The notes: generated by a model from the sequence alone, not told the origin. 64,000 nucleotides of DNA from Syntrophales bacterium (GCA_030018935.1 JASEGZ010000004.1:918-64917), one strand, 5' to 3'; positions 45,674 to 63,935 are shown, numbered from the stretch's first letter. Made by a program: numbers and translations.

Positions 45674-46861
45674 TTATCCCTTTTCGTTCCCTAAGATCAC
45701 TACACAGGATACGCTGGGATGCCCTCCCAAGGTATGGGCCAGTCCCCTGTTTGCCTTTTTAATTTGGCGTTTCCCGCATTTGCCCTGAAGCTGCTTATAT
45801 ATCTCATAACACATCCTCAGGCCGGAGGCCCCGATGGGGTGTCCGAAACACTTCAAACCACCGTCGGTATTGACGGGAAGTTTTCCCTCCAGGGTGAATG
45901 TCCCCCCTTCGATATCTTCCCTTGCCCGTCCCCTCGGGGAAAAACCCAAATCCTCGTAGATAAGCAGTTCCGTAATCGTGAAACAATCGTGCACCACTGC
46001 CAGGTTGATTTCCTCCCGCGGATTCTCTATCCCCGCCTGTTCATAGGCCTGTTTGCTTGCGTTCTGTGTGGCGGCAAAGGTCGTCCAGTTGAATTCCGGT
46101 TCAAAGTGAGGGGCAATGGAGTTTTGTGCCAGTCCAATACCTTTGACGTATATCGGATCGTCACGGAATCTTTTTGCTATCTCGGCATTGCAGATGATGG
46201 CCGCAGCGGCGCCATCACTATTGCCACAGCAGTCATAGAGACCCAACGGTGAAGAAATAATGGGTGCATTTAAGACCTGCTCCAACGTTATTTCCGCCTG
46301 GAAATGTGCCTTTGGGTGCATACTCCCGTTGTGATGATTCTTTACCGCAATCATGCCGATAGCCCTTTTGCCCTCCTCATAGGAGAGGCCATACTCATGG
46401 AAGTACCTGTTGGCAGCGAAGGCGAAACTGCTCGGTGCGGTCCTTCTGACCTCCATCACCGGGTGCACTCCCCTGCCTGCCCCCAGGCCAGGAAATCCGC
46501 AGTCCTTTAACTTTTCAAACCCAAGGGCCAGGACGATATCGTACATCCCCGCCGCCACGCCGAAACATGCATTACGAAACGCCTCATGTCCTGTGGCACA
46601 CCAGTTCTCCACCCGGGTAACCGGTATTTGGTGAAGTTTCAGTGGTTCCGCCAGAGCGAGGCCGCCCATTCCTACCCAGTGGGAAGTGGTAGTTCCCACC
46701 CAGGCGGCCTGGATCTCCTTCGGATCTATACCGGCGTCCTCATAGGCCTCGTAGGCGGCCTCAATGATCATATCCTCCGGTCCCTTGTCCCAGTTCTCAC
46801 CAAATTTACAACACCCCATGCCAATAATGGCCACTCTATCTCTAATTCCTTCTTTTCTCAT
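45674..46861 (-). CDS. SCP-x/archaeal-type thiolase (DUF35-partnered acetyl-CoA C-acyltransferase family)
   Basis: VAIIGMGCCKFGE, active-site C in WCATGHEAF, and C-terminal GHPIGASG and LGGHPS blocks. 395 aa. Confidence 0.85.
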   Translation of the reverse strand: MRKEGIRDRVAIIGMGCCKFGENWDKGPEDMIIEAAYEAYEDAGIDPKEIQAAWVGTTTSHWVGMGGLALAEPLKLHQIPVTRVENWCATGHEAFRNACFGVAAGMYDIVLALGFEKLKDCGFPGLGAGRGVHPVMEVRRTAPSSFAFAANRYFHEYGLSYEEGKRAIGMIAVKNHHNGSMHPKAHFQAEITLEQVLNAPIISSPLGLYDCCGNSDGAAAAIICNAEIAKRFRDDPIYVKGIGLAQNSIAPHFEPEFNWTTFAATQNASKQAYEQAGIENPREEINLAVVHDCFTITELLIYEDLGFSPRGRAREDIEGGTFTLEGKLPVNTDGGLKCFGHPIGASGLRMCYEIYKQLQGKCGKRQIKKANRGLAHTLGGHPSVSCVVILGNEKG

Positions 46862-46889
46862 ATTCTAACCTCGTTTTTGATAAATTCGA

Positions 46890-46931
46890 ATGACCTATGA
46901 CTTACGACTTATGACCTATGACTTACGACTT
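46890..46931. repeat. tandem 21-nt (3 x 7) repeat ATGACCTATGACTTACGACTT x2
   Basis: Two exact 21-nt units built from 7-mers ATGACCT/ATGACTT/ACGACTT. Lies between the HMGCS-DUF35 stop codon, which it touches, and the thiolase start. Confidence 0.8.
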
Positions 46932-48324
46932 ATAATCCAATCGGACGGCATTTCCAATAGTAATTGTAAAAACCGGCCTCCTCATGAAATCGTCTATAGA
47001 TCATCTCCACAGGGGCCTCTATCTTTATCTCCTCAGGTTCGCAATCGGTCATCAGACAGTAGATACGGGCCCCGACTTCAGTTTCTACAATTGTTTGGAT
47101 GGTTGGCGGATTCGGTCCACCGGCCAGGTTATCGAGAGAATATGAAAAGACCTTTCCTTTCTTACCGGATAGGGGAAACTCCTCAAAGTTATCCTTGCTC
47201 TTACAGGAATAACATACCCGTTGAATGGGAAAAGTTATTAAGCCGCATACATTGCATTTACTTCCATGCAAAGCGGCAGACCATTTTCTTGTCCTCCACA
47301 TTACAGAGGCAGAGGGGAAGAGACGTATAAGCTCCTGAGGTGTCTGCACCAATCCACGAAAGGCGAGATATTTCTGGTAACTAAGCTCCTTACCCGCCTC
47401 GAGGGTCAATCCTGTTACTGAGGAAGCGTCTCTTTCCCCCATTTCAAGCAGAAGGGTATCGCTTCCACTGCCAAAGTTTGCCCAGAGGATCGTCTCGCCT
47501 GGTTTTGCCGCGGCAAGGGCAGAAGCGAGCATCATTAAAGCCTGGGCAGAGCCGGTATTCCCTGTCCTGTCCACCAGAGAATCCTGTATCTGTTCCGGTT
47601 TAAACCCCAATTTCTTTGCTACCCGCTGGTGGCTTGTTCCCTCGGGACTGTACATGACCAATTTATCTACTCTGTCGGCCTGCAGATTATTTCTCTCCAT
47701 GATGGCAGTTATGGAATGAGTTATATCCTTCTCATAACCCATCTGGACGATAAAACGATCCTCCCATGTCTTCACAAAATTGTCCTTATCCATTCTCCAT
47801 ACGTCGGTAATATCGTTCCAGGCCGAATAAGAATCTTTGATATGGCAGATTATATCTGAATCTCCAAGGAGGACCGCTGCCCCCCCATCCCCCATAATAC
47901 CCTCCAGAGGGGAACGGGGAAGGGTAGGGCGACAATCGGCAGTGACGACAAGAATATCTCCCAGGCCTGCTTTTACCGCATCTATAGCAGCAATCAAGGC
48001 ATTCGTACTTGACCTTGTTGAACCCCCAAAATCACCGGTACGAATGCCAGGGGAAAGATCGAGCACCCCTGCGCAGATAGCGGCACATTGTTTCTCCCAA
48101 TACGGAGCGGTAGTAGAGGCAAAGTAAAGCCCTTTTATCTTATCCCTGTTTTCCTGCTGCAAACACTTAAAACCGGCCTCGATCGCCATGGTGACGCTAT
48201 CTTCGTCAAAATTGGCCACCCGCCTCTCTCCTTTTCCCGCTTTAGCGCCCCAGGCCATGCCGATTGTCTTTCTGCTCAAACGGTAATAGGGGAGATGAAC
48301 TGCAATCTTTTTAATTCCAACCAT
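46930..48324 (-). CDS. HMG-CoA-synthase-like condensing enzyme fused to a C-terminal DUF35 zinc-ribbon/OB-fold domain
   Basis: The N-terminal ~345 aa has a thiolase-superfamily HMGCS-like pattern (KIAVHLPYYRL..., TADCRP, NTGSA). The C-terminal part has CNVCG...CYSC (zinc ribbon) followed by an OB-like segment. Confidence 0.72.
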   Translation of the reverse strand: MVGIKKIAVHLPYYRLSRKTIGMAWGAKAGKGERRVANFDEDSVTMAIEAGFKCLQQENRDKIKGLYFASTTAPYWEKQCAAICAGVLDLSPGIRTGDFGGSTRSSTNALIAAIDAVKAGLGDILVVTADCRPTLPRSPLEGIMGDGGAAVLLGDSDIICHIKDSYSAWNDITDVWRMDKDNFVKTWEDRFIVQMGYEKDITHSITAIMERNNLQADRVDKLVMYSPEGTSHQRVAKKLGFKPEQIQDSLVDRTGNTGSAQALMMLASALAAAKPGETILWANFGSGSDTLLLEMGERDASSVTGLTLEAGKELSYQKYLAFRGLVQTPQELIRLFPSASVMWRTRKWSAALHGSKCNVCGLITFPIQRVCYSCKSKDNFEEFPLSGKKGKVFSYSLDNLAGGPNPPTIQTIVETEVGARIYCLMTDCEPEEIKIEAPVEMIYRRFHEEAGFYNYYWKCRPIGL

Positions 48325-48365
48325 AAAAAACGCCTCCTTTTTTTCATAAAACTTTTGACAATATC

Positions 48366-49946
48366 TTAAAGAGGGATATTCCCATGCTTCTTCCAGGGTC
48401 TTACTTCTTCTTTATTTGCAAAGCAGGCTAAGGCGTTTGATAATTGCGGTCTTGTATCGCGGGGGTCTATTATATCTTGGATTAATTGCCGCGCTCCAGC
48501 ATGATATAAGTTATTATATTTCTGGACGAATTCTTCTATCCTCTTTTTTCGAACCTCTTCGCGATTTTCCGCAGTCTTTAATTCCTTTTCATAAATGGTA
48601 TTAACGGCGAGTTCTGGGTCTAAGAATCCTACTTTTGCCGTCGGCCAGGCAACTGTTAAATCTACTCCCATCGGTCCTGTGCCCATGACGAATTCAGCAT
48701 AACCGGAACACTCCCCTACATAAATAGTAATCTTAGGGACAGTAGCCTCACAGATAGCGTAGGGAACCTTTGCCGCATGTCGTTCCAATCCTAACTCCTC
48801 TTGCTCTTTGCTGGGAAGAAAACCTACGCTATCTACTAAGAAAATTAGAGGAATATTAAACGCGTCACAGAACCTGATAAATCTCGCCATTTTATCCGAG
48901 GAATCCCTATCTATAGCGCCCTGCATTACTTGAGGATTATTGGCCACTATTCCAACTGTCTGGCCACTTAGGCGGGCGAGACCTATAATTGCGTTTTTTG
49001 CATAAACTGGCTTTATCTCGAAGAAATGACGGTTATCTATGAGACGATAGATGATTTCATACATATCTCTCTTTTCAGCAAGGTTCAACAGCTCCTCATC
49101 TCTCCGGGTGGAAGGGTCGCCAGTATCAATGATAGGTGGTCGTTCTCTATAGTTCGATGGCAGAAAACTCAAAAGCTCTCTGGTCTTTCCTATTCCCTCT
49201 TCATCAGAATCAACGACCAAATCAGAAGTGCCACTTATTTCAGCATGAACCTCAGAGCTTCCAATATCTGCATAAGTCACCACCTCTCCTGTAACATCTT
49301 TAATTGCCGGAGGAGAACAAAGAGCCATGAAAACTTCAGGACTTCTACGCATGATCAAGAAATCTTTTAGTATGGGCGAATAGGAAGAACCTGCGAATTG
49401 CGGCCCCAGCAGTAAAGCGATCTGTGGTATTACCCCTGATGCCCAGGGAGGGGAATACATAAAGCTTCCTGTTTCACCTATTCCGTAGCCACTAATGGGT
49501 GCCCTAAACGTAGGTTCACCCATCATGTCTTGTATCCTTATCCCGGCACTATCCACTATTCCCACATAAGGGATCATCATTTTGGTAGCTGTGTCAATTG
49601 CTTTGGTTACTTTGCTATGCTGCACCGCAGATTGCGTCCCGCTCATTTCGGTAAAATCATGGGCGTATGCATAGACCCAACGCCCATGTACTTTGCCAAA
49701 ACCGATAACCACTGCATCGCCAGGAAGGGATCGGGCATCAATATCATCAAAGCCTGTCCTCATAGGCTGAGCCCATAACTCTGATTCATGGAAGGTTCCT
49801 GAATCAAAGAGCAACTCGATCCTTTCCCTGGCTGTTAGCTTCCCCTTTCCACGCTGTCTCTCTATTTCCTTTGGCCCGCCTCCTAACTTATTCTTCTCCC
49901 TCTCCTGTTCTATTTCCCTGATTTTTTCTCTTATTTTTCCCTCCAT
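48366..49946 (-). CDS. acyl-CoA carboxyltransferase (PccB / MmdA / GcdA family)
   Basis: GKLTARERIELLFD.GTF.E, GDAVVIGFGKVHGR, FTEMSGT, and the second-half carboxyltransferase domain. 526 aa. Confidence 0.88.
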   Translation of the reverse strand: MEGKIREKIREIEQEREKNKLGGGPKEIERQRGKGKLTARERIELLFDSGTFHESELWAQPMRTGFDDIDARSLPGDAVVIGFGKVHGRWVYAYAHDFTEMSGTQSAVQHSKVTKAIDTATKMMIPYVGIVDSAGIRIQDMMGEPTFRAPISGYGIGETGSFMYSPPWASGVIPQIALLLGPQFAGSSYSPILKDFLIMRRSPEVFMALCSPPAIKDVTGEVVTYADIGSSEVHAEISGTSDLVVDSDEEGIGKTRELLSFLPSNYRERPPIIDTGDPSTRRDEELLNLAEKRDMYEIIYRLIDNRHFFEIKPVYAKNAIIGLARLSGQTVGIVANNPQVMQGAIDRDSSDKMARFIRFCDAFNIPLIFLVDSVGFLPSKEQEELGLERHAAKVPYAICEATVPKITIYVGECSGYAEFVMGTGPMGVDLTVAWPTAKVGFLDPELAVNTIYEKELKTAENREEVRKKRIEEFVQKYNNLYHAGARQLIQDIIDPRDTRPQLSNALACFANKEEVRPWKKHGNIPL

Positions 49947-49975
49947 TTCACACCTCGCTAAGGGGATAACTGATA

Positions 49976-51511
49976 TTACAAATTGATATTCTCGTGCTTC
50001 CTCGGCGGTCTTCCTTCTTTTTTATCGGCTGTGCTTTTTAATGCTCTGATAATAGCCTGTCTTGTTAAGCGCGGATCAATGATGTCCTCGTTTGTCTCAG
50101 AAGAAAACCTCTGTACCTGCACTTCCATTACCTCAGTTCCTCTGCGCTTTATTTCCGCCGCTTCTTCAGGGGTTTTCGCTCGCTTTATCCTGCCCAAATA
50201 AACGACAGAGGCGAGCGCGGCAGCTCCCATTACTCCACGCTCTACAGTAGGCCACGCTAAATAGCGGTCTGCCTTAGTGAAATTCACCGGCATAACTAAC
50301 TGTGCCCCGCCATAAAGTTTCCTTACAATTACATTGATCTTAGGGACGGTAGCTTCTGAGGTGGCATGTATCACCATAGTGCCATGACGAAGGATACCTT
50401 TACGTTCCTCAACAGCACTGGGTAAAAACGCAGGACAATCAGAAAAATATACTATTGGTATATTAAAGGCATCACAAAATCGAGTAAAGCGAGCATGCTT
50501 ATCTGCGCTATCGGTATCTTCACATCCTCCTTTCCAACCTGAGTTATTCGCTATTATTCCTGCAGTTTGCCCATTAAACCGGGCAAAACCCACGCTTAAA
50601 TTTCGTGCGTAATCTCTGTTAACTTCAAAATAATAACCGTTATCTACCGCCCTTTTAATTACTTCACGGGTATCAAACCACTTACTCAGGTCAGCCGGCA
50701 CTACTTCGAGGATATCTTCCATCACCCTATCAGGGTCATCTCCAGTCTCAACAATGGGAGGCATTTCCTCGTTATTTGATGGCAAAAAGCTTATTAATTC
50801 TCTACATTTTTCCAAACAATCACCTTCATCTCTTGCCAGCACACTACAGCATCCGCTTCTCCCTGAGTGCATTTTAGCATCGCCTATCTCCCGGCCAGTA
50901 ACCAGCGGGGGTGGGGGAGCCACGTGCATATAGCTTGTCCCTCTGACCATGAAAACAAAATCTGTTAGGACAGCCGATAATGCGGCAGGCCCGACGCAAG
51001 GACCCATTACAAGCGAAACCTGAGGAATTACCCCCGAGGAAAGGGTCTGGAAACGCATCATCAAACCTGGAGTAAAATGACTGTGAGCATGAACTAAGTT
51101 TTGTATTCTCATCCCTTCCGAGTCATACATCCCTATTATAGGACATCTTTCCTTAAGGGCCTTCTCCATTACGGTAACTATTTTCCTGATATGGTTTTCA
51201 GCCATAGTGCCGCCTAAAACGGTAGCATCCTGCGCCCAAACGAAGACAGGTCGCCCGTTTATTTCCCCTTGCCCCACAATCACAGCGTCTCCAGGAGCAT
51301 CTACCTCATCAATATCAAAACCTGTTTTGTAGGCCGAACTCCAAAGATCTATTTCCTGAAAACTGCCCTGGTCTAGAAGCTTCTCTATTCTTTCCCTCGC
51401 AGTGAGTTTACCCTGCTGGTGGACCTTCTCTATCTCGGAAGGTCCACCTCCCCATTTCAACCTTTTGATCGTTGCTTCTCTTTCTTCCCATTTATCCCTT
51501 AAAGTGACCAT
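49976..51511 (-). CDS. acyl-CoA carboxyltransferase (PccB / MmdA / GcdA family), paralog
   Basis: GKLTARERIEKLLDQGSFQE, GDAVIVGQGEINGRPVFVWAQD, LGGTM. 511 aa. It is clearly diverged from the downstream paralog. Confidence 0.88.
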   Translation of the reverse strand: MVTLRDKWEEREATIKRLKWGGGPSEIEKVHQQGKLTARERIEKLLDQGSFQEIDLWSSAYKTGFDIDEVDAPGDAVIVGQGEINGRPVFVWAQDATVLGGTMAENHIRKIVTVMEKALKERCPIIGMYDSEGMRIQNLVHAHSHFTPGLMMRFQTLSSGVIPQVSLVMGPCVGPAALSAVLTDFVFMVRGTSYMHVAPPPPLVTGREIGDAKMHSGRSGCCSVLARDEGDCLEKCRELISFLPSNNEEMPPIVETGDDPDRVMEDILEVVPADLSKWFDTREVIKRAVDNGYYFEVNRDYARNLSVGFARFNGQTAGIIANNSGWKGGCEDTDSADKHARFTRFCDAFNIPIVYFSDCPAFLPSAVEERKGILRHGTMVIHATSEATVPKINVIVRKLYGGAQLVMPVNFTKADRYLAWPTVERGVMGAAALASVVYLGRIKRAKTPEEAAEIKRRGTEVMEVQVQRFSSETNEDIIDPRLTRQAIIRALKSTADKKEGRPPRKHENINL

Positions 51512-51526
51512 TTATTTTCTCCTTCT

Positions 51527-53980: not shown

Positions 53981-54114
53981 TTTGCTAACCTCCTTTTTTG
54001 AAACTTAAGAACCTTCAGTCACTTAGAACAAAGTCCCATGCCGCTTTCCCATTGAATTAGAATAGCATACCGATTTTCCGCAATAATACAACTCTTGTTT
54101 GCCATGCAAGAGAT

Positions 54115-55272: not shown

Positions 55273-55322
55273 ACTTCCTCTACACCTCCCCTTCTTACTT
55301 AACTTTCTCAAATTTAATTTTT

Positions 55323-56483: not shown

Positions 56484-56515
56484 CCCAATCACCTCTTTCT
56501 TATTTTCAAGTTAAG

Positions 56516-57652: not shown

Positions 57653-57796
57653 TTTTTATCTCCTTTCCATAAACTCCAAAGTTTTTAAGTAAGAAATCCC
57701 ATTTCTACGCAAAGTTAATTTAAGTTATATCCCGGCTTCCGGAAACTATTGTGTAACTCGTTGATTTGATTTAGCATCGCTTTTCATTTTTATGGA

Positions 57797-58114
57797 CTAC
57801 ATGATCATTTTCGGCATTTTGAGTTGCATTTTGCTTATCAGTTCTCTCTGTTGCGCGTTGAGCTTAACCGGCTTCCGTGCTGTTTTGCCCGAAAGCTCCT
57901 CTATGCCTAAGCAGTTCATAAGAACACTGTCATATCCTCCATACTCTTCAGGAAGGGGCAGCAAATGGAATCCGTGATCTATCAGCATTTTGGCGACATC
58001 GAAAGGGAAATCCCCGATTTTATCTGTTTCCCCTATCTTCGGCTCTACTTCCTTGGATACTATCTTTCTAATTGCTTGCTGCACCATTCTTTGTTCTTCG
58101 GTAAGTTCATACAT
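57797..58114 (-). pseudogene. truncated duplicate of the 5-prime end of the acyl-CoA dehydrogenase at 54115-55272
   Basis: The first ~75 codons plus the 5-prime UTR (57891-58160) are near-identical to 55049-55321. The rest (GKTARKPVKLNAQQRELISK...) is unrelated. Confidence 0.8.
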
Positions 58115-58200
58115 ACTCCCTCTACACCTCCCTTTTTTTAACTTTCTCAAATTTAATTTTAAGTGATATATTTAGCTTTACCCATCCTTTGAGATCTGCT

Positions 58201-59370
58201 TCAAATAGACCTCCCGCCGATACTCTTCCGGGCAGATAAATAGTCCTCAATTATTACCCTTCCCAGATTATCCGAAGAGGTAAAGAAGACACGACCCGCA
58301 TTAATTTTAGCCAGTTGAGAGGCAAAATCTTTCAGCCCTGGTTTTTCCCCCAACATTATTATATTCAGGGTAATGTCTTCCCTTCTGTATTGGAGGGCTT
58401 CTTTTTTTACACCGGGTGCCGCTTTTTCAAATCCCACATACTTGCCATTTTCCGTATTAGGTTCGGTATCTGTAATAAGGTATACTTGTTTGTTTCCCCT
58501 TTCATTGCACAGAGCCCTCCTGCCGGCCAGTAGAGCGGCCTTTATATCTGTAGTGCCACCTAAAAGATTTATATTTAAGATATCCCAGTAGGATATTTCC
58601 TTGATCTGCGAGGAGTAAACGATAACCTTTAAAGTGTCGCCCGGTCTTTTTGTCCTCGCCAGAGCCAGACAGGTGCTGATGGCCGCATCTCTTTTCTCCT
58701 CACCCATGCTTCCGCTTTCATCAATCAATAAGGCCATGCTGATTTTACTTTCGTTGTTTTTCTCAAAAACCTCAAAGTCTTCCCGTTCTAAGGAAATAGG
58801 AGACTTTCTTCCTCTATGAGCATCGGAGATATTCTTTTCCGTTAATGCCTTTCTCTTTAGAGAATTAAGAAGTGTTTTTTGAATATCAACAGATCCGTAG
58901 GCATCGCCATACTTATATTTCCTCGTAGATAAGGCCAATTCCAGACCATAGCCCACCTCTTTTACTTTATAGGTGCCGGCTTCCCTTTTTTTCATCAGAT
59001 TTTCCAAATTGACCCTTGCTATATCTGCCAGTTTTTGACCGCCTTTTTGAGTTATTATCACCTGACCTTTTTCCAGTTTTAGATCGCCCTGCTCAACATA
59101 CCTTTCCAGGCAACCCTCTACATCTGCCGGTAGAATCCCATCGGCAAGATTTTCATAGCCACCCTCCACTTTAATATGATCCCCCGGTTCTTCACCCCTC
59201 ACCCTTTTCTTGACATGTTCGAGCGTTTTATCCCTGATGCTCCCCTTGCCGCCGTCCCTGAGATACTTGAGTAAATCTCTTACGGTGCGATTTTTAGAAT
59301 AGGCAAGCTCCTGCAAAATCTTATCCTGTTCCTCTTTCTGTTCAAACATGCATCTCTGGCAGAGTTCCAT
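58201..59370 (-). CDS. von Willebrand factor A (vWA) domain protein, ChlD/BchD-like partner
   Basis: C-terminal vWA domain with MIDAS LLIDESGSM, ...GGTTD..., ...ITDTEP. Its start abuts the stop of the upstream AAA+ gene (TAAATG junction). Confidence 0.8.
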   Translation of the reverse strand: MELCQRCMFEQKEEQDKILQELAYSKNRTVRDLLKYLRDGGKGSIRDKTLEHVKKRVRGEEPGDHIKVEGGYENLADGILPADVEGCLERYVEQGDLKLEKGQVIITQKGGQKLADIARVNLENLMKKREAGTYKVKEVGYGLELALSTRKYKYGDAYGSVDIQKTLLNSLKRKALTEKNISDAHRGRKSPISLEREDFEVFEKNNESKISMALLIDESGSMGEEKRDAAISTCLALARTKRPGDTLKVIVYSSQIKEISYWDILNINLLGGTTDIKAALLAGRRALCNERGNKQVYLITDTEPNTENGKYVGFEKAAPGVKKEALQYRREDITLNIIMLGEKPGLKDFASQLAKINAGRVFFTSSDNLGRVIIEDYLSARKSIGGRSI

Positions 59371-60894
59371 TTATCCTCTCCCCTTTGCCCAGCCGATCAT
59401 CGCCGGGGTAAAAATCCTGCCTTTGATTTCCTCTTCCGCTATTAGATTGCCGTGTAAGGCCGTATTTAAAACAGTCTCAAAAGCTGAATAGTTATATTGT
59501 TCCAGGGTTTCCTGGTCAGCGGCAGCCGGTTCCGTAAAGACTTCCTTCTCCCGTTCATTGAGCAACTCACCCTTTACCTTTTCCATTCCCACCATTTCCA
59601 TTTTCTTTATAACCCGGTTTAATTCCCCATATTTCTGAAGTTTAAGGGTGAGATTTTTAATTTCTTCAGAACATAAGATAACCTGCCTTATATCCTTCGC
59701 CAGTCTTTCCCTGTCACATTCTGCGAGGATAGAAAATCTCAGATTTTCAAAGGCGTTCCACAGTAAATCTTCGCTTACCTCATCGGTACGCTTAAAACTC
59801 TCCTCAGGATTTTCGAAGTCTATCAAATCAGGTTTCAATTCTATGCGACCGCGCAAGGCCAGCTTTAATCCAGCAACGGCATCCTGCAGATACCCCACTT
59901 TTCTATTTTCCAGTTCAGCACTGGCATAGGTATGGTCGAGCGCCCTGTAACTCCCCCTGAGACTTGTCCTTCTGTCTAACAACCCACATTTGCGGCTGTG
60001 ACTTATACTTTCATTCAAAAGATGCATTATCCACCAGGGTAGTACTACCTTCCTTTCATTCTCTTTCATGTTTATCTTCTGGGGGAGGCAATCCTCTTCT
60101 CTTCCCATATCCTGTAAGTAGTTCTCGGTTTTAAATTTTTCTCGCAGCATAATCTCCATTTCTATCTCTTTAGTGGGCAGGGGCATATAGATCAGTTCTA
60201 ACCTGTCTAAGAGGGGACGTGGAACCTCATTAACATGGGAAAAACCCTGCGGATTGCCAGTAGCCACGAGGACAATATCAAGAGGATGCTCCCAGTTGTA
60301 CTCTTCGAGGATGGCTTTCTTCTCCTCCAGGATAGGGTGTAACAGAACCTGAACCTTGGTTCGAATAGCCGGCAATTCATCAATAAATAAGATGCCCCGA
60401 TTAGCCCTGAAGATACCTGTGGCGGCAAAGGCCATGGCATCCGTTGGGCTTCTGCCCTGGACTATGGCCTGAATATCTACCAGGCCCAGTAATTTTGCTT
60501 CATCAGTATAGTCATTGCCCTGAATGCGGGAAAATCTACGTTCACCCGCTACCAGCTCATATTCTCTTACCGGATCTTCAATGCATCTTGGACATAATAA
60601 ATGAGCAGGCCACTTCGGATCATCATTATAAGGGCAATTTTTTATCCTCGGGATGGGAGATAAAAGCCTGGTCAAAGATTTGGCTAACCTTGTTTTCCCT
60701 GTCCCCTCTTCAGAAACCAGATAAATGTTGTAGCCGGAAAGTAACGCCCGTAGAACATCTCTTTTTGTTTCCTCCCGGCCTTGAATGTCCGGCAGTATCT
60801 CTTCTCCTTTCTTAATTTTCTGTAAAATGGAAGCCCTGAGTTGATTTACTACGGAAACTGGCTGGTAGCTGTCCAGATTAAATCTACTTTTCAC
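59371..60894 (-). CDS. ChlI/BchI-like AAA+ ATPase
   Basis: Walker A EEGTGKTRLA, Cys-rich insert NCPYNDDPKWPAHLLCPRC, Walker B GILFIDELP, and sensor region ATGNP...PLLDRL. This layout matches Mg-chelatase subunit I-type ATPases. GTG start after AAGGGGGA. Confidence 0.8.
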   Translation of the reverse strand: MKSRFNLDSYQPVSVVNQLRASILQKIKKGEEILPDIQGREETKRDVLRALLSGYNIYLVSEEGTGKTRLAKSLTRLLSPIPRIKNCPYNDDPKWPAHLLCPRCIEDPVREYELVAGERRFSRIQGNDYTDEAKLLGLVDIQAIVQGRSPTDAMAFAATGIFRANRGILFIDELPAIRTKVQVLLHPILEEKKAILEEYNWEHPLDIVLVATGNPQGFSHVNEVPRPLLDRLELIYMPLPTKEIEMEIMLREKFKTENYLQDMGREEDCLPQKINMKENERKVVLPWWIMHLLNESISHSRKCGLLDRRTSLRGSYRALDHTYASAELENRKVGYLQDAVAGLKLALRGRIELKPDLIDFENPEESFKRTDEVSEDLLWNAFENLRFSILAECDRERLAKDIRQVILCSEEIKNLTLKLQKYGELNRVIKKMEMVGMEKVKGELLNEREKEVFTEPAAADQETLEQYNYSAFETVLNTALHGNLIAEEEIKGRIFTPAMIGWAKGRG

Positions 60895-61123
60895 GAACTT
60901 ATCCCCCTTAAATTTTACGACTTAGAGCAAGAAGTCAGAAGATCGGACGCAAGAGACCGCCGCTATAACGCGGGGCCACGGAAGCGCCGCTTGTTGTTTC
61001 CACCAAGTAATTGCTTTTCTACATTTTAACAGGATTGTATGAAAAAGTCGAAACCGAAAAAAATCTTAATTCGCACTTGGAGCTTAAGAAGTCTAGAGTC
61101 TGAAGTTAAGTAAAGGTTCTGCT

Positions 61124-61151
61124 CACGACTCCTGACCCCCGACTCTCGACC
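61124..61151. repeat. heptamer-phased repeat (CGACTCC/TGACCCC/CGACTCT words)
   Basis: CACGACTCCTGACCCCCGACTCTCGACC, in the divergent intergenic region. Related to 17318-17346. Confidence 0.55.
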
Positions 61152-61355
61152 TAAGAAGAATTTTGCAGAATTAAAAATTTCATGATAAGAGTAGTAAACT
61201 ACCTTCACTCGAACAATTCGAAAATCTTTTAAATCATCGTCTCAAATAACGAAAGGGGGGATTTTAATTAAAGGGGATGCGGTAGTAATAAGTAATTCCA
61301 AAAGGGAAGGTTGTTTCATTTAACATTTAAGGAAATAAGAAAGGAGGAAGGTACG

Positions 61356-62924
61356 ATGGGAGAGATAATTCCAAAACTGGGGACGATTTCATTTGAGGAC
61401 CAGGCAAAAAAGGCCAGGCCTTACGATTGGGGATTTGGTTGTACACCCAGGGTTGCTAAACTAAGGGACGATTGCTATTCAAAGGCGGTAATAATAAAAG
61501 ATTGGGCTGATGTTGTTAGTGGATTGGGTGTGGTCAGCTTCCGAAAGGATGTAAGACTCGATGTTGATAGGGCAAGGATTGTTACGAAGGCTTTTAAAGA
61601 AACTGAAGGGAAACCGGTTGTATTACGAAAGGCAGAAGTTATGTCCAGGTTATGTGAAGAGATGCCCATCTTTATTAAACCGGGAGAGCTTATTGTGGGG
61701 GATCCTAATAGTGCACCCGATGAGGTGAGGTGGTATCCTGAAATTTCCGTATCCTATATACCGGAGTCATTGGAAACCGGCTTTAAGCATATGGTAACGC
61801 CCGAAGAGAAAAAAGAGATACTCGAGGAGATTTATGATTACTGGAAAGACAAATCACAGGAATGTTTAGTAGAGTCGGTTCTGCCAAAAGAGGTATCGCC
61901 GTTTGTACATCGCTCTCCAACTAACCCATGCTTTTTTGCAGATCTCTGGAATGCCGGACGGACATTGATGGACTATGATTACGAAAAAATTTTCCAGGGA
62001 GGTGTCAAAGGAAGGGTTGAAAAGGCAGAAGCAAAACTTAAGGAATTGGAAAGTAAATCCTTTGAAATGCATCCTGCTGATTATATCCATAAGAAGAATA
62101 CCTGGGGAGGTATGATTAAATGTGGAAAGGCGCTGATCAGATTTGCCCAAAGATATGCTGAACTTGCCAGGGAACAGGCGCAAAAAGAGCAGGACCCAGT
62201 TCGCAAAAAGGAATTAGAAGAGATTGCAGCCGTTTGTGAGTGGGTCCCGGCAAATCCCCCCCGTACTTTCCAGGAAGCGCTCCAGTTTTTCTGGTTTAAT
62301 GAGGTAGTTGGCAGGTTTCTTGCGATACCCGGCAATGGTTCGGGGTGTAGACTTGACCAGGTATGGTGGCCTTACTATGAGAAAGATATGAAAGAAGGAA
62401 AACTCACCAGGGCTAAGGCATTAGAGATGATAGAATGCTGGATGCTGAAAGTTCAGGAGGTAGGCAACTATATCGAACATCCTCAAACCTTCTCCCTGAC
62501 GGCTGGCACTGATGTACTCTATACGGCCAATATTGGCGGTTCGAGGCCTGATGGAAGGGATGCATCAAATGATCTGACCTGCCTGGTCCTGGAAGCAATG
62601 GCCGACGTTCGGATCAATCAACCTCCTGTCATGTTCCGTTATCACCGTAATGTAAATCCTGATGTAATAGAGAGGGTTATTGAACTGATCCGGGCTGGGA
62701 CCGGTCATCCGGCAATTTTTAATGAGGAACTACTGGAGAGGTGGGCATTGATGCGTGGTTATTCTCTTGAAGATGCCAAGAGGACCCAGGCGGCGGGGTG
62801 TGTGGCCATGACTTGTACAGGCAAACCTCTTTCTTCAGGTTTTTTCCCGGTAATAAGTTTTTTAGGCGCGCCCAAGATGATGGAATATGCCCTTTACCAG
62901 GGGAAAGATGCCTTTAGCCAGTAA
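61356..62924 (+). CDS. glycyl radical enzyme, N-terminal fragment (carries the catalytic Cys loop)
   Basis: Start ATG 61356 (AAAGGAGGAAGG upstream). DRARIV...IFIKPGELIVGD, and Cys loop AAGCVAM (Cys codon 62799-62801). Ends at TAA 62922 at a position that aligns with the middle of the 817-aa paralog. Confidence 0.85.
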   Translation: MGEIIPKLGTISFEDQAKKARPYDWGFGCTPRVAKLRDDCYSKAVIIKDWADVVSGLGVVSFRKDVRLDVDRARIVTKAFKETEGKPVVLRKAEVMSRLCEEMPIFIKPGELIVGDPNSAPDEVRWYPEISVSYIPESLETGFKHMVTPEEKKEILEEIYDYWKDKSQECLVESVLPKEVSPFVHRSPTNPCFFADLWNAGRTLMDYDYEKIFQGGVKGRVEKAEAKLKELESKSFEMHPADYIHKKNTWGGMIKCGKALIRFAQRYAELAREQAQKEQDPVRKKELEEIAAVCEWVPANPPRTFQEALQFFWFNEVVGRFLAIPGNGSGCRLDQVWWPYYEKDMKEGKLTRAKALEMIECWMLKVQEVGNYIEHPQTFSLTAGTDVLYTANIGGSRPDGRDASNDLTCLVLEAMADVRINQPPVMFRYHRNVNPDVIERVIELIRAGTGHPAIFNEELLERWALMRGYSLEDAKRTQAAGCVAMTCTGKPLSSGFFPVISFLGAPKMMEYALYQGKDAFSQ

Positions 62925-62928
62925 AAGC

Positions 62929-62963
62929 GGGATTGGGGCCAGAGCCCCAATCCCTTTATTTTT
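62929..62963 (+). terminator. intrinsic-terminator-like hairpin inside the split glycyl radical enzyme
   Basis: GGGATTGGGGC-CAGA-GCCCCAATCCC followed by TTTATTTTT, then AAAGGAGG (62965-62972) and ATG 62982. Confidence 0.6.
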
Positions 62964-62981
62964 GAAAGGAGGATAAATTCC

Positions 62982-63935
62982 ATGGAAAGACCGAAAACCA
63001 AAGATCCGAGGGAGATGAAATCAGGCGATGAATTACTCGATGCTATATGTGAGCAATTAGACTTCTACACAAAAATAGCTGTTCTTTCTCATAATATAGG
63101 TCATCAGGTAATCATGGATCATAACGCAGATCCTCTTAATTCTTTGATGCTCGATGAGACTTTGGAGCGTGGTGATGATCTGTATAAGTATAATCTGGAG
63201 TTTGACAGCGAGCCCCAGTTAATCTCATTAGGTTTTGTAAATGTCGCTGATTCACTGGCAGCCATCCAAAAACTGGTTTTTGAGGAGAAGAAATATACGA
63301 TGGATGAGCTTCTTTGCGCACTGAAATCAAATTGGGATGGTTATGAAGAGATGCGTCAGGATTTCCTTAATGCTCCCAAGTACGGCAACGACGATGACTA
63401 TGTTGATGAGTGGGCGGTAAAGGTAAAAAGGAGAATGTACGAAACTGTTCACAACATTAAAGATGCATGGGATAACCCCTGTATCATAGATGGAAGTTCG
63501 GTAATTGCTTATCAGGCAATGGCTTTAGGCATTGGAGCCACACCCGACGGCAGGATGATGTCCGATATTATGGCTGATGGTAGCTTTTCGCCTGCGGCGG
63601 GCGCTGACAAGAAAGGTCCTACAGCGGTACTTAACTCCGTGGGCAAGGTGCCTTTTCTCCATACCGGCCTCTTTAACCAGCGCTTTATGCCGGCATTTCT
63701 TGAGGGAGAGAACAAAAAACTCTTCGCTGAATATTTGAAAGAATGGTATGAAAAGATGACTATCCCCCATATCCAGTTTAATGTAGTTAACTCTGAAACT
63801 TTAAGAGATGCCCAGCAAAATCCGGAAAAGTACCCCGATCTCCAGGTAAGAATCGCAGGCTATAGCGCTTACTTTATTGATATACCAAAGGAGACGCAAG
63901 ACAGCATCATTTGCAGAACGGAGCATAGCTTTTAA
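62982..63935 (+). CDS. glycyl radical enzyme, C-terminal fragment (carries the glycine radical domain)
   Basis: KYGNDDDYVD, GATPDGR, KKGPTAVLNS, and VRIAGYSAYFIDI...QDSIICRTE. Aligns with residues ~500-817 of the paralog at 51527-53980. Confidence 0.88.
   Translation: MERPKTKDPREMKSGDELLDAICEQLDFYTKIAVLSHNIGHQVIMDHNADPLNSLMLDETLERGDDLYKYNLEFDSEPQLISLGFVNVADSLAAIQKLVFEEKKYTMDELLCALKSNWDGYEEMRQDFLNAPKYGNDDDYVDEWAVKVKRRMYETVHNIKDAWDNPCIIDGSSVIAYQAMALGIGATPDGRMMSDIMADGSFSPAAGADKKGPTAVLNSVGKVPFLHTGLFNQRFMPAFLEGENKKLFAEYLKEWYEKMTIPHIQFNVVNSETLRDAQQNPEKYPDLQVRIAGYSAYFIDIPKETQDSIICRTEHSF

What the first reader, a model, noticed from the sequence alone, without database searches (positions are those of the whole stretch)
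45674..63935. Two paralogous glycyl radical enzymes embedded in a long CoA-ester operon: candidate undescribed anaerobic activation pathway
Seen in the sequence:
- Eleven co-directional minus-strand genes run from 60894 down to 45674, with spacers of roughly 0-145 nt.
- In order they are a ChlI-like AAA+ ATPase, a vWA protein, a truncated ACAD copy, three full acyl-CoA dehydrogenases and an 817-aa glycyl radical enzyme (GRE). These are followed by two carboxyltransferase paralogs, an HMGCS-like/DUF35 fusion and an SCP-x-type thiolase.
- A second, paralogous GRE is transcribed divergently from 61356.
- A convergent operon (41767-45620) adds a CoA-transferase and a 2-hydroxyacyl-CoA-dehydratase-like pair. 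A double-hotdog hydratase sits at 40168-41286.

Established knowledge, from memory:
- The GREs that feed beta-oxidation-like CoA routes are the fumarate-adding X-succinate synthases.
- Those come with small beta/gamma subunits, an adjacent activase and a MoxR-type ATPase (BssE).
- The 1,2-eliminase GREs (glycerol/propanediol dehydratase, CutC, HypD, IslA) sit in quite different loci.

Inference:
- Neither GRE here has flanking 50-100-aa ORFs, and no activase lies in the window.
- The accessory set (carboxyltransferases, HMGCS-DUF35, three ACADs, ChlI/vWA) does not match any characterised GRE locus I can name.
- This may be a GRE-initiated catabolic route for an unidentified substrate that ends in CoA thioesters.
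Basis: partly seen in the sequence, partly recalled or inferred. Interest (0 to 1): 0.8.

Follow-up and report, generated by a model that had tools for sequence, protein, structure and literature searches.

The report
Two orphan glycyl radical enzymes, one split
A Syntrophales genome places side by side two uncharacterised oxygen-sensitive radical enzymes: one always travels with a pair of carboxyl-transfer enzymes, and the other is naturally split into two genes and partnered with an ATP-driven chaperone pair, an arrangement the 2026 review of this enzyme family does not describe.

Summary

1. The "second GRE" is two genes: GRE2-N (61356-62924, carrying the Cys loop) and GRE2-C (62982-63935, carrying the glycyl radical domain). 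This split recurs in at least six lineages. Both halves have dN/dS of 0.02-0.18, so it is not a pseudogene.
2. The "missing activase" is an effect of the window's edge. In a sister strain (94 % DNA identity up to base 64000), two GRE activases and a conserved 176-aa ORF follow directly.
3. The eleven-gene "operon" is a mosaic. The AAA+/vWA pair belongs with split GRE2. A 248-nt duplicate of ACAD3 marks a rearrangement scar.

GRE1 belongs to a large, uncultured-only clade (Dehalococcoidia, Desulfobacterota). Its invariant Cys loop, C-M-R-W…R, fits no characterised class. Its recurrent neighbours are two PccB-type carboxyltransferases, an activase and acyl-CoA beta-oxidation genes.

The substrate remains unknown.

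The parts
61356..62924 (+). GRE2-N: 522-aa N-terminal piece of a split glycyl radical enzyme (dimerisation helices, first half-barrel, Cys loop AAGC482VAM)
   Evidence: PFL-like Pfam match to profile positions 18-463 only. A 522-aa ortholog is present in L004-L008 and L105-L107. dN/dS is 0.07-0.18.
62925..62981 (+). Spacer between the two GRE2 genes: terminator-like hairpin at 62929-62954 followed by a T-run, then Shine-Dalgarno gaaaggagg at 62964-72
   Evidence: The Shine-Dalgarno sequence and the ATGGAAAGACC start are conserved in all close relatives. The spacer's length, sequence, stop codon and reading-frame relation are not.
62982..63935 (+). GRE2-C: 317-aa C-terminal piece (second half-barrel plus glycyl radical domain, motif RIAG)
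   Evidence: Pfam PFL-like profile positions 471-628 plus Gly_radical. Five clusters of exactly 317 aa at 82-97 % identity. dN/dS is 0.02-0.10.
59371..60894 (-). ChlI/MoxR-like AAA+ ATPase, partner of split GRE2 (Walker A GTGKT, Walker B DE, invariant Cys cluster C87/C101/C104)
   Evidence: Pfam AAA_5 and Mg_chelatase. AF2 model pLDDT 83; best folds are BchI/ChlI, then MoxR-type ATPases including RavA. Adjacent to the split GRE in L004/5, L105-107 and L110/111.
58201..59370 (-). vWA protein with an intact MIDAS motif (D217-E-S-G-S), partner of the AAA+
   Evidence: Pfam VWA/VWA_2. PF27098 is recorded for the orthologs. MIDAS is conserved in four lineages.
57797..58150 (-). ACAD3 5' duplicate: a 117-aa fragment, non-functional remnant at the junction between the two modules
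   Evidence: 95 % identical to ACAD3 residues 1-88. A 248-nt direct repeat, 55049-55296 and 57891-58138, at 97 % identity.
56516..57652 (-). ACAD1, resembling the PimD small subunit of pimeloyl-CoA dehydrogenase
55323..56492 (-). ACAD2, resembling the PimC large subunit of pimeloyl-CoA dehydrogenase
54115..55311 (-). ACAD3, resembling acryloyl-CoA reductase, cyclohexanecarboxyl-CoA dehydrogenase and non-decarboxylating glutaryl-CoA dehydrogenase
51527..53980 (-). GRE1: 817-aa intact GRE of the 'CMRW' clade (C460, M461, R462, W463, R473, G791)
   Evidence: Pfam PFL-like plus Gly_radical. The motif is invariant in 120 of 120 family members. AF2 model pLDDT 88, canonical GRE fold.
49976..51511 (-). 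CT1: PccB/MmdA-type carboxyltransferase
   Evidence: Orthologous partner of GRE1-family genes in L018, L019, L020, L021 and L047.
48366..49946 (-). CT2: paralogous carboxyltransferase, 39 % identical to CT1
   Evidence: Paired with a CT1-like gene in L018, L019, L021 and L047.
46930..48324 (-). Fusion of an HMG-CoA-synthase-like condensing enzyme with a DUF35 OB-fold domain
   Evidence: Homologs lie near GRE1 in L046/L047 and near a genuine AssA in L030.
45674..46861 (-). SCP-x-type thiolase
41767..45620 (+). Convergent operon: family-I CoA-transferase plus a 2-hydroxyacyl-CoA-dehydratase/BcrBC-like pair
   Evidence: HGD-like genes also neighbour GRE1-family genes in L022 and L024.
40168..41286 (-). 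Double-hotdog (MaoC/FAS1-DH) hydratase
   Evidence: A 62 % homolog lies within 10 kb of the GRE1 homolog in L002.

Best explanation
The region joins two separately inherited glycyl-radical modules in a Syntrophales genome.

MODULE A (58201 to beyond 64000) is a self-contained split-GRE system. GRE2-N supplies the dimer helices, the first half-barrel and the catalytic Cys. GRE2-C supplies the second half-barrel and the glycine that stores the radical. The two polypeptides must assemble into one ten-stranded barrel. A ChlI/MoxR-like AAA+ ATPase and its vWA-MIDAS partner are encoded alongside. Just past the window's end, by homology with the sister strain, come two GRE activases and a conserved 176-aa protein.
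Inferred: an activase installs the radical on GRE2-C, and the AAA+/vWA pair assists assembly, activation or exchange of the pieces.

MODULE B (45674-57652) is an acyl-CoA operon. Its conserved core is GRE1 plus two PccB-type carboxyltransferases.
Shown: GRE1 belongs to a large uncharacterised clade with an invariant two-arginine Cys loop, and one of those arginines aligns with the fumarate-binding Arg of benzylsuccinate synthase.
Inferred: GRE1 performs radical C-C (or C-H) chemistry on a carboxylate-bearing substrate, possibly a dicarboxylate or dicarboxylyl-CoA. The product or precursor is then handled as a CoA thioester, through alpha-carboxyl transfer or decarboxylation of the methylmalonyl-CoA type and through beta-oxidation. 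This resembles the route downstream of X-succinate synthases, but without their small subunits. The substrate is unknown.
For: SPLIT GRE2.
- The two ORFs and their junction are described.
- The same 522 + 317 aa arrangement occurs in L004-L008, L035-L037 and L105-L107. More distant split relatives are L108/109 (533 + 323 aa) and L110/111 (531 + 321 aa), broken in the same loop.
- Stop codons, spacer lengths and frame relations differ between loci, while the Shine-Dalgarno sequence and start are conserved.
- dN/dS is 0.02-0.18, with dS above 1 in all comparisons except the window versus its closest relative.
- The break lies in a coil after the Cys hairpin. This is the half-barrel seam described in PMC13450708 section 4.1.

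ACTIVASES.
- Both genes downstream in L105 reach TIGR02494 at 355-356 bits against a cutoff of 174.
- L035, the part of that contig that overlaps the window's end, aligns to the window at 94 % nucleotide identity up to base 64000.

AAA+/vWA.
- The pair is adjacent to the split GRE in four lineages and two gene orders.
- The AAA+ has a ChlI/MoxR fold, and the vWA has an intact MIDAS motif.

MOSAIC STRUCTURE.
- In the sister strain, module A lies between leuBCD and Band7/NfeD, with no ACAD/GRE1 operon.
- DNA similarity to relatives stops at the module borders.
- The ACAD3 duplicate marks a scar.

GRE1 CORE.
- CT1-like plus CT2-like plus a GRE1-family gene occur together in L018, L019, L021 and L047. 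An activase is adjacent in L018, L019 and L047. L020 has one CT.
- Census of 144 neighbour ORFs in 19 loci: Carboxyl_trans 9, Radical_SAM 9, ACAD 8, MaoC 5, ECH 4, SDR 4, thiolase 3.
- The CMRW…R motif is present in 120 of 120 members.
- R473 aligns to TutD R508 by hhalign.
- The CTs are of the PccB/MmdA/12S type.
- A genuine AssA locus (L030) shares the thiolase plus HMGCS-DUF35 pair.
Against: - No activase, AAA+-dependent step, protein complex or substrate has been observed. All functional statements rest on sequence and gene context.
- The window's own DNA past 64000 could not be retrieved.
- About three quarters of GRE1-family loci show no carboxyltransferase within 5.5 kb. One locus has four tandem paralogs among housekeeping genes.
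- CT genes next to the 90 %-identical GRE1 in L047 are only 45-53 % identical to the window's, so the pairing is analogous rather than strictly orthologous.
- No biotin carrier, biotin carboxylase, mutase or ETF gene was found near GRE1.
- The R473-R508 equivalence comes from profile alignment; MAFFT offset it by three columns.
- A fused GRE2-like protein (P0274) and an AAA+ homolog (P0439) appear to share one contig, so AAA+/vWA may not be specific to split forms.
Confidence: 0.6

Rival explanations
1. GRE2 is a dead gene: a nonsense mutation split it, and the two ORFs are decaying remnants. A variant of this idea is that an assembly error created the split.
For: There is an in-frame TAA, and in the window the two ORFs are in the same frame. 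A terminator-like hairpin follows the stop.
Against: The same break is found in more than ten independent assemblies and at least six lineages. Both halves are under strong purifying selection, with saturated dS in most comparisons. The Shine-Dalgarno sequence and start codon of the C gene are conserved while the spacers have diverged. The catalytic Cys and Gly motifs are intact in every copy.
Confidence: 0.03
2. Stop-codon readthrough or another recoding event joins the two GRE2 ORFs into one full-length protein.
For: In the window and in L006 the C ORF is in frame with the N ORF. In the window no further stop lies in the 57-nt spacer.
Against: In L035/L036/L105 and L004 the C ORF is in the +1 frame relative to the N ORF. 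In L006 the TAG stop is followed directly by TAA. In L108 and L110 the spacers are 157 and 103 nt and the C ORF is out of frame. A conserved Shine-Dalgarno plus ATG argues for independent translation initiation.
Confidence: 0.03
3. GRE1 is a fumarate-adding X-succinate synthase that works without beta and gamma subunits and activates an unknown hydrocarbon. The carboxyltransferases and beta-oxidation genes process the resulting substituted succinate.
For: GRE1 shares Cys-Met and the Arg508 equivalent with TutD and MasD. BSS-alpha gives the highest query-normalised TM-score, 0.90. Its neighbours form a Bbs-like set: ACAD, hydratase, SDR and thiolase-DUF35. A genuine AssA locus has the same thiolase/HMGCS-DUF35 pair. 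From memory: a carboxyltransferase is proposed to act downstream in alkylsuccinate degradation.
Against: XSS-conserved S495, P496, Y197 and W613 are replaced by R, W, G and I/L/V. GRE1 scores lower against TutD and MasD (366-368 bits) than against glycerol dehydratase (460 bits), whereas a real AssA scores 485 against TutD and 349 against GDH. No small Fe-S subunit ORFs are present, and none reach the census list. No mutase lies nearby. The pocket positions are mostly Gly or Thr rather than hydrophobic.
Confidence: 0.2
4. GRE1 and/or GRE2 are ordinary 1,2-eliminases or dehydratases (of the glycerol/diol, HypD, CutC or IslA kind) with a new small-molecule substrate, and the CoA genes nearby are coincidental.
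For: The best sequence matches are HpsG, HypD and GDH for GRE1 and CutC for GRE2. JGI pipelines name relatives 'choline trimethylamine-lyase'.
Against: The Glu of the CXE motif, which hydrogen-bonds the substrate and is retained by all eliminases and isomerases (PMC13450708), is Arg in GRE1 (120 of 120) and Ala or Asn in the GRE2 family. Scores are about half the equivalog cutoffs. Carboxyltransferase and ACAD neighbours recur across phyla.
Confidence: 0.1
5. The eleven genes are one co-evolved operon in which AAA+/vWA serve GRE1 (as BssE is proposed to serve BSS), and GRE2 is merely a neighbour.
For: The genes are co-directional and tightly spaced, and no strong minus-strand terminator lies between them.
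Against: AAA+/vWA accompany split GRE2 in loci that lack GRE1 and the ACADs. None of the 19 GRE1-family neighbourhoods brings an AAA_5/Mg_chelatase family into the census list, and no strong AAA+ match occurs in a GRE1-family locus. A duplication scar lies at the junction.
Confidence: 0.04

Closest known systems
X-succinate synthases / GRE hydroalkylases (BssA/TutD, MasD/AssA, LSS)
   Same: GRE fold. Cys-Met at the catalytic loop and an Arg aligning with the fumarate-binding R508 (GRE1 only). Downstream handling as CoA thioesters by ACAD, hydratase and thiolase-DUF35. An AAA+ ATPase is encoded in the locus (BssE in bss, AAA+/vWA here).
   Different: No beta/gamma(/delta) Fe-S subunits. The C-M-S-P motif, Y197 and W613 are not conserved. 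Sequence scores are lower than to eliminases for GRE1. GRE2 lacks the Arg. The ATPase here is a 507-aa ChlI-like protein with a vWA partner and is tied to GRE2.
CXE-type GRE 1,2-eliminases and isomerases (glycerol/propanediol dehydratase, HypD, CutC, IslA/IseG, HpsG, YbiW/PflD, HplG)
   Same: Best overall sequence and profile matches. Single large catalytic subunit of about 800-840 aa. Activase of the TIGR02494 type.
   Different: The substrate-contacting Glu of CXE is replaced by Arg in GRE1 and by Ala or Asn in the GRE2 family. Scores are about half of every equivalog cutoff. The genomic context is acyl-CoA metabolism, not aldehyde processing or microcompartments.
PFL with its spare-part protein GrcA/YfiD
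   Same: The only known case in which the glycyl-radical-bearing part of a GRE is supplied as a separate polypeptide that docks onto the rest of the enzyme.
   Different: GrcA is a small stand-alone glycyl radical domain that rescues a damaged full-length enzyme. GRE2-C is 317 aa, comprising a whole half-barrel plus the glycyl radical domain, and it is the only copy, so the enzyme is obligatorily two-chain.
AAA+/vWA-MIDAS remodelling pairs (Mg-chelatase ChlI/ChlD; from memory also MoxR-type CbbQ/CbbO, NorQ/NorD, CoxD/CoxE, RavA/ViaA)
   Same: ChlI/MoxR-type AAA+ fold with intact Walker motifs, encoded next to a vWA protein with an intact DxSxS MIDAS motif.
   Different: Only about 20 % identity to ChlI. 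It has an extra C-terminal helical domain of about 150 aa and an invariant Cys cluster. The client would be a GRE, which has not been described for such pairs.
Methylmalonyl-CoA decarboxylase / propionyl-CoA carboxylase beta / transcarboxylase 12S carboxyltransferases
   Same: CT1 and CT2 align end to end at 440-458 bits with PccB, MmdA and 12S structures.
   Different: They form a conserved pair of 39 %-identical paralogs next to a GRE. They fall below the TIGR01117 cutoff (503-517 bits against 999). No biotin carrier, biotin carboxylase or pump subunits lie nearby.

Membership tests
PFL-like glycyl radical enzymes (superfamily) | PFL-like barrel domain plus a C-terminal Gly_radical domain with the RVxG-type glycine motif | tested here: met
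   GRE1 hits PF02901 at 530 bits and PF01228 at 98 bits, with motif RVAG. GRE2-N plus GRE2-C together cover both domains, with motif RIAG.
PFL-like glycyl radical enzymes (superfamily) | Catalytic Cys on a hairpin loop between the two half-barrels; ten-stranded barrel fold | tested here: met
   GRE1 C460 and GRE2 C482 align with TutD C493. The GRE1 AF2 model has pTM 0.91 and TM 0.85-0.90 to all solved GREs. The GRE2 fold was not modelled.
PFL-like glycyl radical enzymes (superfamily) | Cognate radical-SAM activase (TIGR02494 type) | tested here: inconclusive
   None lies in the window. Two lie directly downstream in the sister strain L105, and one or two in every other GRE2 relative that has downstream flank except L108 and L110. 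GRE1 relatives L011, L016-L019, L027 and L047 have an adjacent activase. The window's own downstream DNA could not be obtained.
X-succinate synthases | Cys-loop C-M-S-P and the fumarate-binding Arg (TutD R508) | tested here: not met
   GRE1 has C-M-R-W, with the Arg equivalent present (61 of 61). The GRE2 family has C-V-A/N-x, with Phe, Ile, Met or Leu at the R508 position.
X-succinate synthases | Small Fe-S beta and gamma subunits encoded beside the alpha subunit | tested here: not met
   No Cys-rich small ORFs flank GRE1 or GRE2. No BssC_TutF family appears in the neighbourhood census list. orf176 has only 2 Cys.
X-succinate synthases | Clade membership: scores higher to XSS than to other classes | tested here: not met
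   GRE1 scores 368 to TutD and 366 to MasD, below 460 to GDH. GRE2 scores 411 to MasD, below 439 to CutC. The control AssA (L030) scores 1290 to MasD, 485 to TutD and 349 to GDH.
GRE 1,2-eliminases and isomerases | CXE motif (Glu two residues after the catalytic Cys) | tested here: not met
   GRE1 has Arg (120 of 120). The GRE2 family has Ala or Asn. The motif definition is from PMC13450708.
GRE 1,2-eliminases and isomerases | Reaches a curated equivalog score (HpsG, HypD, CutC, HpfG) | tested here: not met
   The best is 524 bits against a cutoff of 1000 (HpsG). The PFL2-3 subfamily model gives 515 against 678.
Formate lyases (PFL/TdcE) | Two adjacent catalytic cysteines | tested here: not met
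   Both window GREs have a single Cys preceded by Gly. Only the fused relatives L038a/b have Cys-Cys.
GRE decarboxylases (HPAD type) | Glu two residues after the catalytic Cys (HPAD Glu505), a second catalytic Glu (Glu637) and, for HPAD, a small Fe-S subunit | tested here: not met
   The position two residues after the Cys is Arg in GRE1 and Ala in the window's GRE2. No small Fe-S subunit ORFs are present. NCBIfam decarboxylase models score 276-338 bits for GRE1 against cutoffs of 1100-1150. The Glu637 equivalent was not mapped.
GrcA/YfiD spare-part proteins | Small stand-alone glycyl radical domain that supplements a full-length GRE | tested here: not met
   GRE2-C is 317 aa including half of the barrel, and no full-length GRE2 copy exists in these loci.
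ChlI/MoxR AAA+ with vWA partner | H2-insert-clade AAA+ fold with Walker A/B, adjacent to a vWA-MIDAS protein | tested here: met
   Walker motifs are invariant. The fold matches BchI/ChlI and MoxR-type ATPases including RavA. The DESGS MIDAS motif is conserved. The two genes abut.
Biotin-dependent acyl-CoA carboxylase / decarboxylase carboxyltransferase subunits | Carboxyl_trans domain of the PccB/MmdA type, together with biotin carrier and biotin carboxylase or pump subunits | tested here: inconclusive
   The domain is met, at 422-423 bits, with PDB matches of the PccB, MmdA and 12S type. No biotinyl or carboxylase family was found among the window ORFs scanned or in the census list.

The most novel reading that the evidence does not exclude
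The CMRW-clade enzyme GRE1 is a B12-independent radical enzyme that acts directly on dicarboxylyl-CoA or methylmalonyl-type thioesters. One example would be a glycyl-radical counterpart of the carbon-skeleton mutases (succinyl-CoA <-> methylmalonyl-CoA or an alkyl homologue), handing its product to the paired PccB-type carboxyltransferases. This would extend the known pattern of GREs duplicating adenosylcobalamin chemistry (diol dehydratase, ribonucleotide reductase) to mutases, in corrinoid-scavenging Dehalococcoidia and syntrophs.

Consistent observations: the constant pairing with methylmalonyl-type CTs; the absence of a B12 mutase from the 25 commonest neighbour families; two invariant arginines; a Gly-rich and presumably roomy pocket; and PimCD- and glutaryl-CoA-dehydrogenase-like ACADs.

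No result tests this directly.
Probability: 0.07. Interest if true: 0.92.

Novelty: new variant of a known kind. Interest (0 to 1): 0.66.

Why it matters
Glycyl radical enzymes carry out some of the hardest anaerobic reactions, yet the 2026 review of the field states that whole clades remain unassigned. It describes every PFL-like GRE as having a single large catalytic chain.

This locus offers two concrete targets.

1. **A naturally split GRE.** It is cut exactly at the seam between the half-barrels, kept under purifying selection, and encoded with a ChlI/MoxR-type AAA+/vWA pair and two activases. This is a ready-made system for asking how the radical domain is presented to the activase, whether damaged radical-bearing halves can be exchanged (the review's open question of spare parts beyond PFL), and what BssE-like ATPases do.
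2. **A large clade found only in uncultured organisms.** It occurs in Dehalococcoidia, Desulfobacterota and Nitrospinae MAGs from aquifers, hydrothermal sediments and tar biofilms. It has a diagnostic C-M-R-W…R loop and a recurrent carboxyltransferase partnership, which points to an undescribed radical step in subsurface carbon turnover.

The motif and the gene trio give simple markers for mining and for choosing expression targets.

Tried and rejected
- **Exact-sequence look-ups.** Look-ups of GRE1, GRE2-C, P0260 and the 100 %-identical AAA+ P0422 found no contig. The window's continuation could therefore not be read, and sister-strain contigs were used instead.
- **Radical-SAM ORF 2065-2997.** Tested as a candidate activase and rejected: only weak MnmL/YtqA-type hits.
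- **Large ORFs 37212-39662 and 17399-19891.** Suspected to be further GREs; they are Lon and ComEC.
- **L038/L039.** I first read these as tandem split GREs, because tblastn used separate N and C queries. ORF tracing showed they are fused, about 880 aa each, and I corrected this.
- **Atu/Liu-type (gamma-carboxylation, isoprenoid) reading of the two CTs.** Rejected: they match the PccB/MmdA type at 440-458 bits and the MCC/GCC type at only 155-190 bits.
- **Glutaconyl-CoA decarboxylase reading.** No such structure matched at E < 1e-40.
- **ORM2 'Magic' benzene cluster (PMC13101534).** It contains no GRE.
- **Limonenylsuccinate synthase (PMC12583861).** It is a conventional alpha-beta-gamma XSS, 61 % identical to BssA.
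- **PDB entry 9rco ('glycyl radical protein').** It is a propanediol dehydratase.
- **Fold comparison of GRE1.** It does not discriminate between classes; all give TM 0.85-0.90.
- **The 93-aa Gly_radical ORF in L006.** It is unrelated to GRE2 and derives from AssA.
- **Promoter scan.** Fewer sigma-70-like sites than in shuffled sequence, so it was uninformative.

Full report
**1. Observation.**
On the minus strand, in order, lie:
- a ChlI/MoxR-like AAA+ ATPase (59371-60894);
- a vWA protein (58201-59370);
- a 117-aa ACAD fragment (57797-58150);
- three ACADs (56516-57652, 55323-56492, 54115-55311);
- an 817-aa GRE (51527-53980);
- two carboxyltransferases (49976-51511, 48366-49946);
- an HMGCS-like/DUF35 fusion (46930-48324);
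- an SCP-x-type thiolase (45674-46861).

Spacers are 0-144 nt. The convergent CoA-transferase/HGD-like operon and the double-hotdog hydratase are also present. The rest of the window is mostly housekeeping: trp genes, pantothenate synthesis, SurA, Opp-type ATPases, a sigma-54 two-component pair, ComEC, TilS, FtsH, FolP, trigger factor and Lon. Public names of near-identical proteins place the window in a Syntrophales/Syntrophaceae MAG.

**2. First correction: GRE2 is two genes.**
The "second GRE" has a TAA stop at 62922-62924. A 57-nt spacer follows, containing the strongest terminator-like hairpin of the region (62929-62954) and a Shine-Dalgarno sequence. Translation restarts at ATG 62982. 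The N gene (522 aa) ends 37 residues after the catalytic Cys. The C gene (317 aa) carries the rest of the barrel and the glycyl radical domain.

This is not damage, for four reasons:
- Five protein clusters of exactly 317 aa at 82-97 % identity exist.
- Contigs L004-L008, L035-L037 and L105-L107 all show a 522-aa gene followed by a 317-aa gene.
- Across these loci the stop codon (TAA or TAG), the spacer length (57-79 nt), the spacer sequence and the frame relation (same frame or +1) all differ. Only the Shine-Dalgarno sequence and the start of the C gene are conserved. Conserved readthrough is excluded for the same reasons.
- Nei-Gojobori dN/dS is 0.07-0.18 for the N gene and 0.02-0.10 for the C gene, with saturated dS in all comparisons except the window versus its closest relative.

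Two more distant lineages, about 57 % identical, are also split in the same loop: L108/109 (533 + 323 aa) and L110/111 (531 + 321 aa). A third sub-clade (L038/L039) is fused. So the fission is either ancient with one re-fusion, or it happened twice at the same site.

By alignment to the GRE1 model, the break lies in a coil of about 24 residues between the helix after the Cys hairpin and the next long helix. The 2026 review gives the GRE topology as first half-barrel, Cys loop, second half-barrel, glycyl radical domain. The cut is therefore at the seam between the Cys loop and the second half-barrel. The same review describes no split GRE, and says spare-part proteins are known only for PFL.

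**3. Second correction: the activase.**
The window ends 65 nt after GRE2-C. Contig L105 comes from a sister strain; its segment L035 aligns to the window at 94 % DNA identity up to base 64000. Its order is:

leuB-leuD-leuC <- vWA <- (AAA_14/DUF4143 insert) <- AAA+ | GRE2-N, GRE2-C, activase A, activase B, orf176 | Band7/NfeD, UDG, CoaBC

Both activases pass the TIGR02494 cutoff, at 355-356 bits against 174. L004/5 and L006-8 have one activase plus orf176 in the same place. The only radical-SAM ORF in the window (2065-2997) is not a GRE activase. orf176 is highly conserved and soluble, has two Cys and no Pfam or NCBIfam match.

**4. Third correction: a mosaic, not one operon.**
- The AAA+/vWA pair accompanies the split GRE in four lineages and in two gene orders: divergent upstream in the window, L004/5 and L105-107, and co-directional downstream in L110/111. 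It co-diverges with the GRE: AAA+ 51-88 % and vWA 36-81 % identical.
- In the sister strain nothing resembling the ACAD/GRE1 operon adjoins it.
- The 88 % DNA match of L046/L047 to the window covers only the GRE1 gene, 51543-54091.
- The "truncated ACAD" is a 95 % copy of ACAD3's first 88 residues. It is one arm of a 248-nt direct repeat at 97 % identity that brackets ACAD1-ACAD2, which marks a recent rearrangement.

The AAA+ has invariant Walker motifs and a Cys cluster. Its model (pLDDT 83) is closest to BchI/ChlI and then to MoxR-type ATPases including RavA. The vWA protein keeps a DESGS MIDAS motif.

One caveat: a fused GRE2-like protein (P0274) and an AAA+ homolog (P0439) are listed on contigs of identical length, so the pair may serve the whole GRE2 family.

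**5. What the GREs are not.**
- GRE1 and GRE2 are 39 % identical to each other.
- Against NCBIfam both reach about half of each equivalog cutoff.
- Against PDB sequences, GRE1 scores 460 (GDH), 423 (IseG), 421 (HypD) and 366-368 (TutD, MasD). GRE2 scores 439 (CutC), 411 (MasD) and 390 (GDH).
- Controls from fetched loci behave as class members should: an AssA (L030) scores 1290 to MasD, and a dehydratase (L034) scores 704 to GDH.
- The GRE1 model (pLDDT 88) superposes on all classes at TM 0.85-0.90 and 28-33 % identity.
- Cys-loop signatures: eliminases and isomerases have CXE, PFL has CC, and XSS have C-M-S-P with Arg at Cys+15. GRE1 has C-M-R-W with Arg at Cys+13, in 120 of 120 family members. 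GRE2 has C-V-A-M with Phe at the Arg position.
- Profile-profile alignment pairs GRE1 R473 with TutD R508. XSS-conserved Y197, S495, P496 and W613 are G, R, W and I/L/V in GRE1.
- No small Fe-S subunit ORFs flank either gene.

**6. What travels with GRE1.**
The family has more than 400 members at E < 1e-50. All named ones come from MAGs: Dehalococcoidia, Desulfobacteraceae, Syntrophales, Adiutricales and Nitrospinae. Their names are generic or clearly automatic.

Among about 20 distinct loci:
- A CT1-like plus CT2-like pair sits beside the GRE in the window, L018, L019 (both Dehalococcoidales), L021 (Desulfobacteraceae) and L047. An activase is adjacent in L018, L019 and L047. L020 has one CT.
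- A Pfam census of 144 neighbour ORFs gives Carboxyl_trans 9, Radical_SAM 9 (7 with Fer4_12), ACAD 8, MaoC 5, ECH 4, SDR 4 and thiolase 3.

The CTs are of the PccB/MmdA/12S type, which acts at the alpha-carbon, and are 39 % identical to each other. ACAD1 and ACAD2 resemble PimD and PimC, and ACAD3 resembles glutaryl-CoA and cyclohexanecarboxyl-CoA dehydrogenases. A genuine AssA locus shares the thiolase/HMGCS-DUF35 pair.

The association is not universal. L015 has four tandem paralogs among housekeeping genes. The CTs next to the 90 %-identical GRE1 of L047 are only 45-53 % identical to the window's.

**7. Mechanism.**

*Shown:*
- two intact catalytic sets (Cys and Gly);
- a conserved two-gene GRE under selection;
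- dedicated activases in relatives;
- a conserved AAA+/vWA-MIDAS partner;
- a conserved GRE1 + CT + CT core;
- a distinctive two-arginine loop.

*Inferred for module A:* GRE2-N and GRE2-C assemble into one barrel, and an activase radicalises Gly293 of GRE2-C. The AAA+/vWA pair acts on the complex, by analogy with ChlI/ChlD and MoxR-vWA systems. It may open the complex for activation, or exchange a spent C piece; this last idea is speculative.

*Inferred for module B:* GRE1 binds an anionic, carboxylate-bearing substrate through R462 and R473 and performs radical C-C or C-H chemistry. Its product or precursor passes through methylmalonyl-type carboxyl transfer and beta-oxidation. XSS-like hydroalkylation without small subunits is the most concrete version (about 0.2). 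A B12-independent mutase-like reaction is the most novel reading that is not excluded (about 0.07).

**8. Novelty and verdict.**
Literature searches found no description of a split PFL-like GRE, of an AAA+/vWA-GRE pairing, or of the CMRW clade. The 2026 review describes none of them. Both features are new variants of a known enzyme kind, supported here by comparative genomics only. The most surprising element, the split GRE, was missed.

Noticed in passing
window 62929-62954: The strongest terminator-like hairpin of the 19-kb region (11-bp stem, 8 GC pairs, then a T-run) sits between GRE2-N and GRE2-C. It is kept with minor changes in the sister strain (L035/L105) but is absent from the spacers of L004 and L006. 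It might tune the N:C expression ratio.
   Followed up: partly
window 55049-55296 and 57891-58138: A 248-nt direct repeat at 97 % identity: the 5' part of ACAD3 is duplicated upstream of ACAD1. The copies bracket the PimD/PimC-like ACAD1-ACAD2 pair, as if that pair had been inserted recently.
   Followed up: yes
window 2065-2997: A 310-aa radical-SAM protein lies between the trp genes and an isochorismatase. It is not a GRE activase. Its weak best hits are MnmL/YtqA, an MCR glutamine methyltransferase and HpnJ. Its function is unknown.
   Followed up: partly
window 8917-10397: A 113-aa fragment carrying only the oligo_HPY C-terminal region of an Opp-type ATPase, an unannotated 148-aa ORF, and a 124-aa integrase N-terminal fragment lie next to two intact Opp ATPase genes. 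This looks like the remnant of an integration event.
   Followed up: no
window 25147-26490: A GmrSD-N/HNH protein (type IV restriction-like) lies alone between folP and an acyl-CoA synthetase.
   Followed up: no
window 27259-28788 and 32506-33459: More acyl-CoA genes are scattered upstream of the locus: a long-chain-type acyl-CoA synthetase that passes the NF004837 cutoff, and a pair of MaoC/HadA-like hotdog proteins.
   Followed up: no
L006 4808-5089 (-), with 8050-8214 and 8315-9331: A 93-aa Gly_radical ORF lies beside a split GRE. Its last 52 residues are 90 % identical to the glycyl radical domain of an AssA/MasD-type enzyme, and its first 40 residues match AssA residues 98-137. It sits near a Cys-rich BssC/AssC-like ORF and a MoxR ATPase. 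It is either an internally deleted assA or a GrcA-like spare part for an X-succinate synthase; the 2026 review says spare parts are known only for PFL.
   Followed up: partly
L038 883-3534 and 3443-6112; L039: Two tandem fused GRE2-family paralogs (about 880 aa, 76 % identical to each other) carry Cys-Cys at the catalytic loop, as formate lyases do. In L039 an activase follows them.
   Followed up: partly
L015 (= L001) 5054-14965: Dehalococcoidia UBA2777 has four tandem GRE paralogs (810-818 aa) flanked by arginine, folate and nucleotide genes; the one queried is 67 % identical to GRE1. No activase or CoA genes lie within 10 kb.
   Followed up: partly
L105 5269-6438 (also L106, L107): In the sister strain a 389-aa AAA_14/DUF4143 ORF is inserted between the AAA+ and vWA genes, which abut in the window.
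   Followed up: no
L047 4348-6760: A DruA-like ORF and an IS66-family transposase separate the thiolase/HMGCS-DUF35/SDR block from the 90 %-identical GRE1 ortholog, consistent with mobility of these modules.
   Followed up: no
window 59371-60894 (residues C87, C101, C104): The AAA+ family has an invariant Cys cluster (CPYNDDPKWP…LLCPRC) inserted after Walker A, which may be a small metal-binding element.
   Followed up: no
L010, L022 and protein P0596: One Nitrospinae MAG (RIFCSPLOWO2_12_FULL_45_22) carries two GRE1-family genes (68 % and 55 % identical) and a fused GRE2-family gene (its cluster is 51 % identical to GRE2-C). The two orphan families therefore co-occur in a genome outside Syntrophales.
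   Followed up: partly
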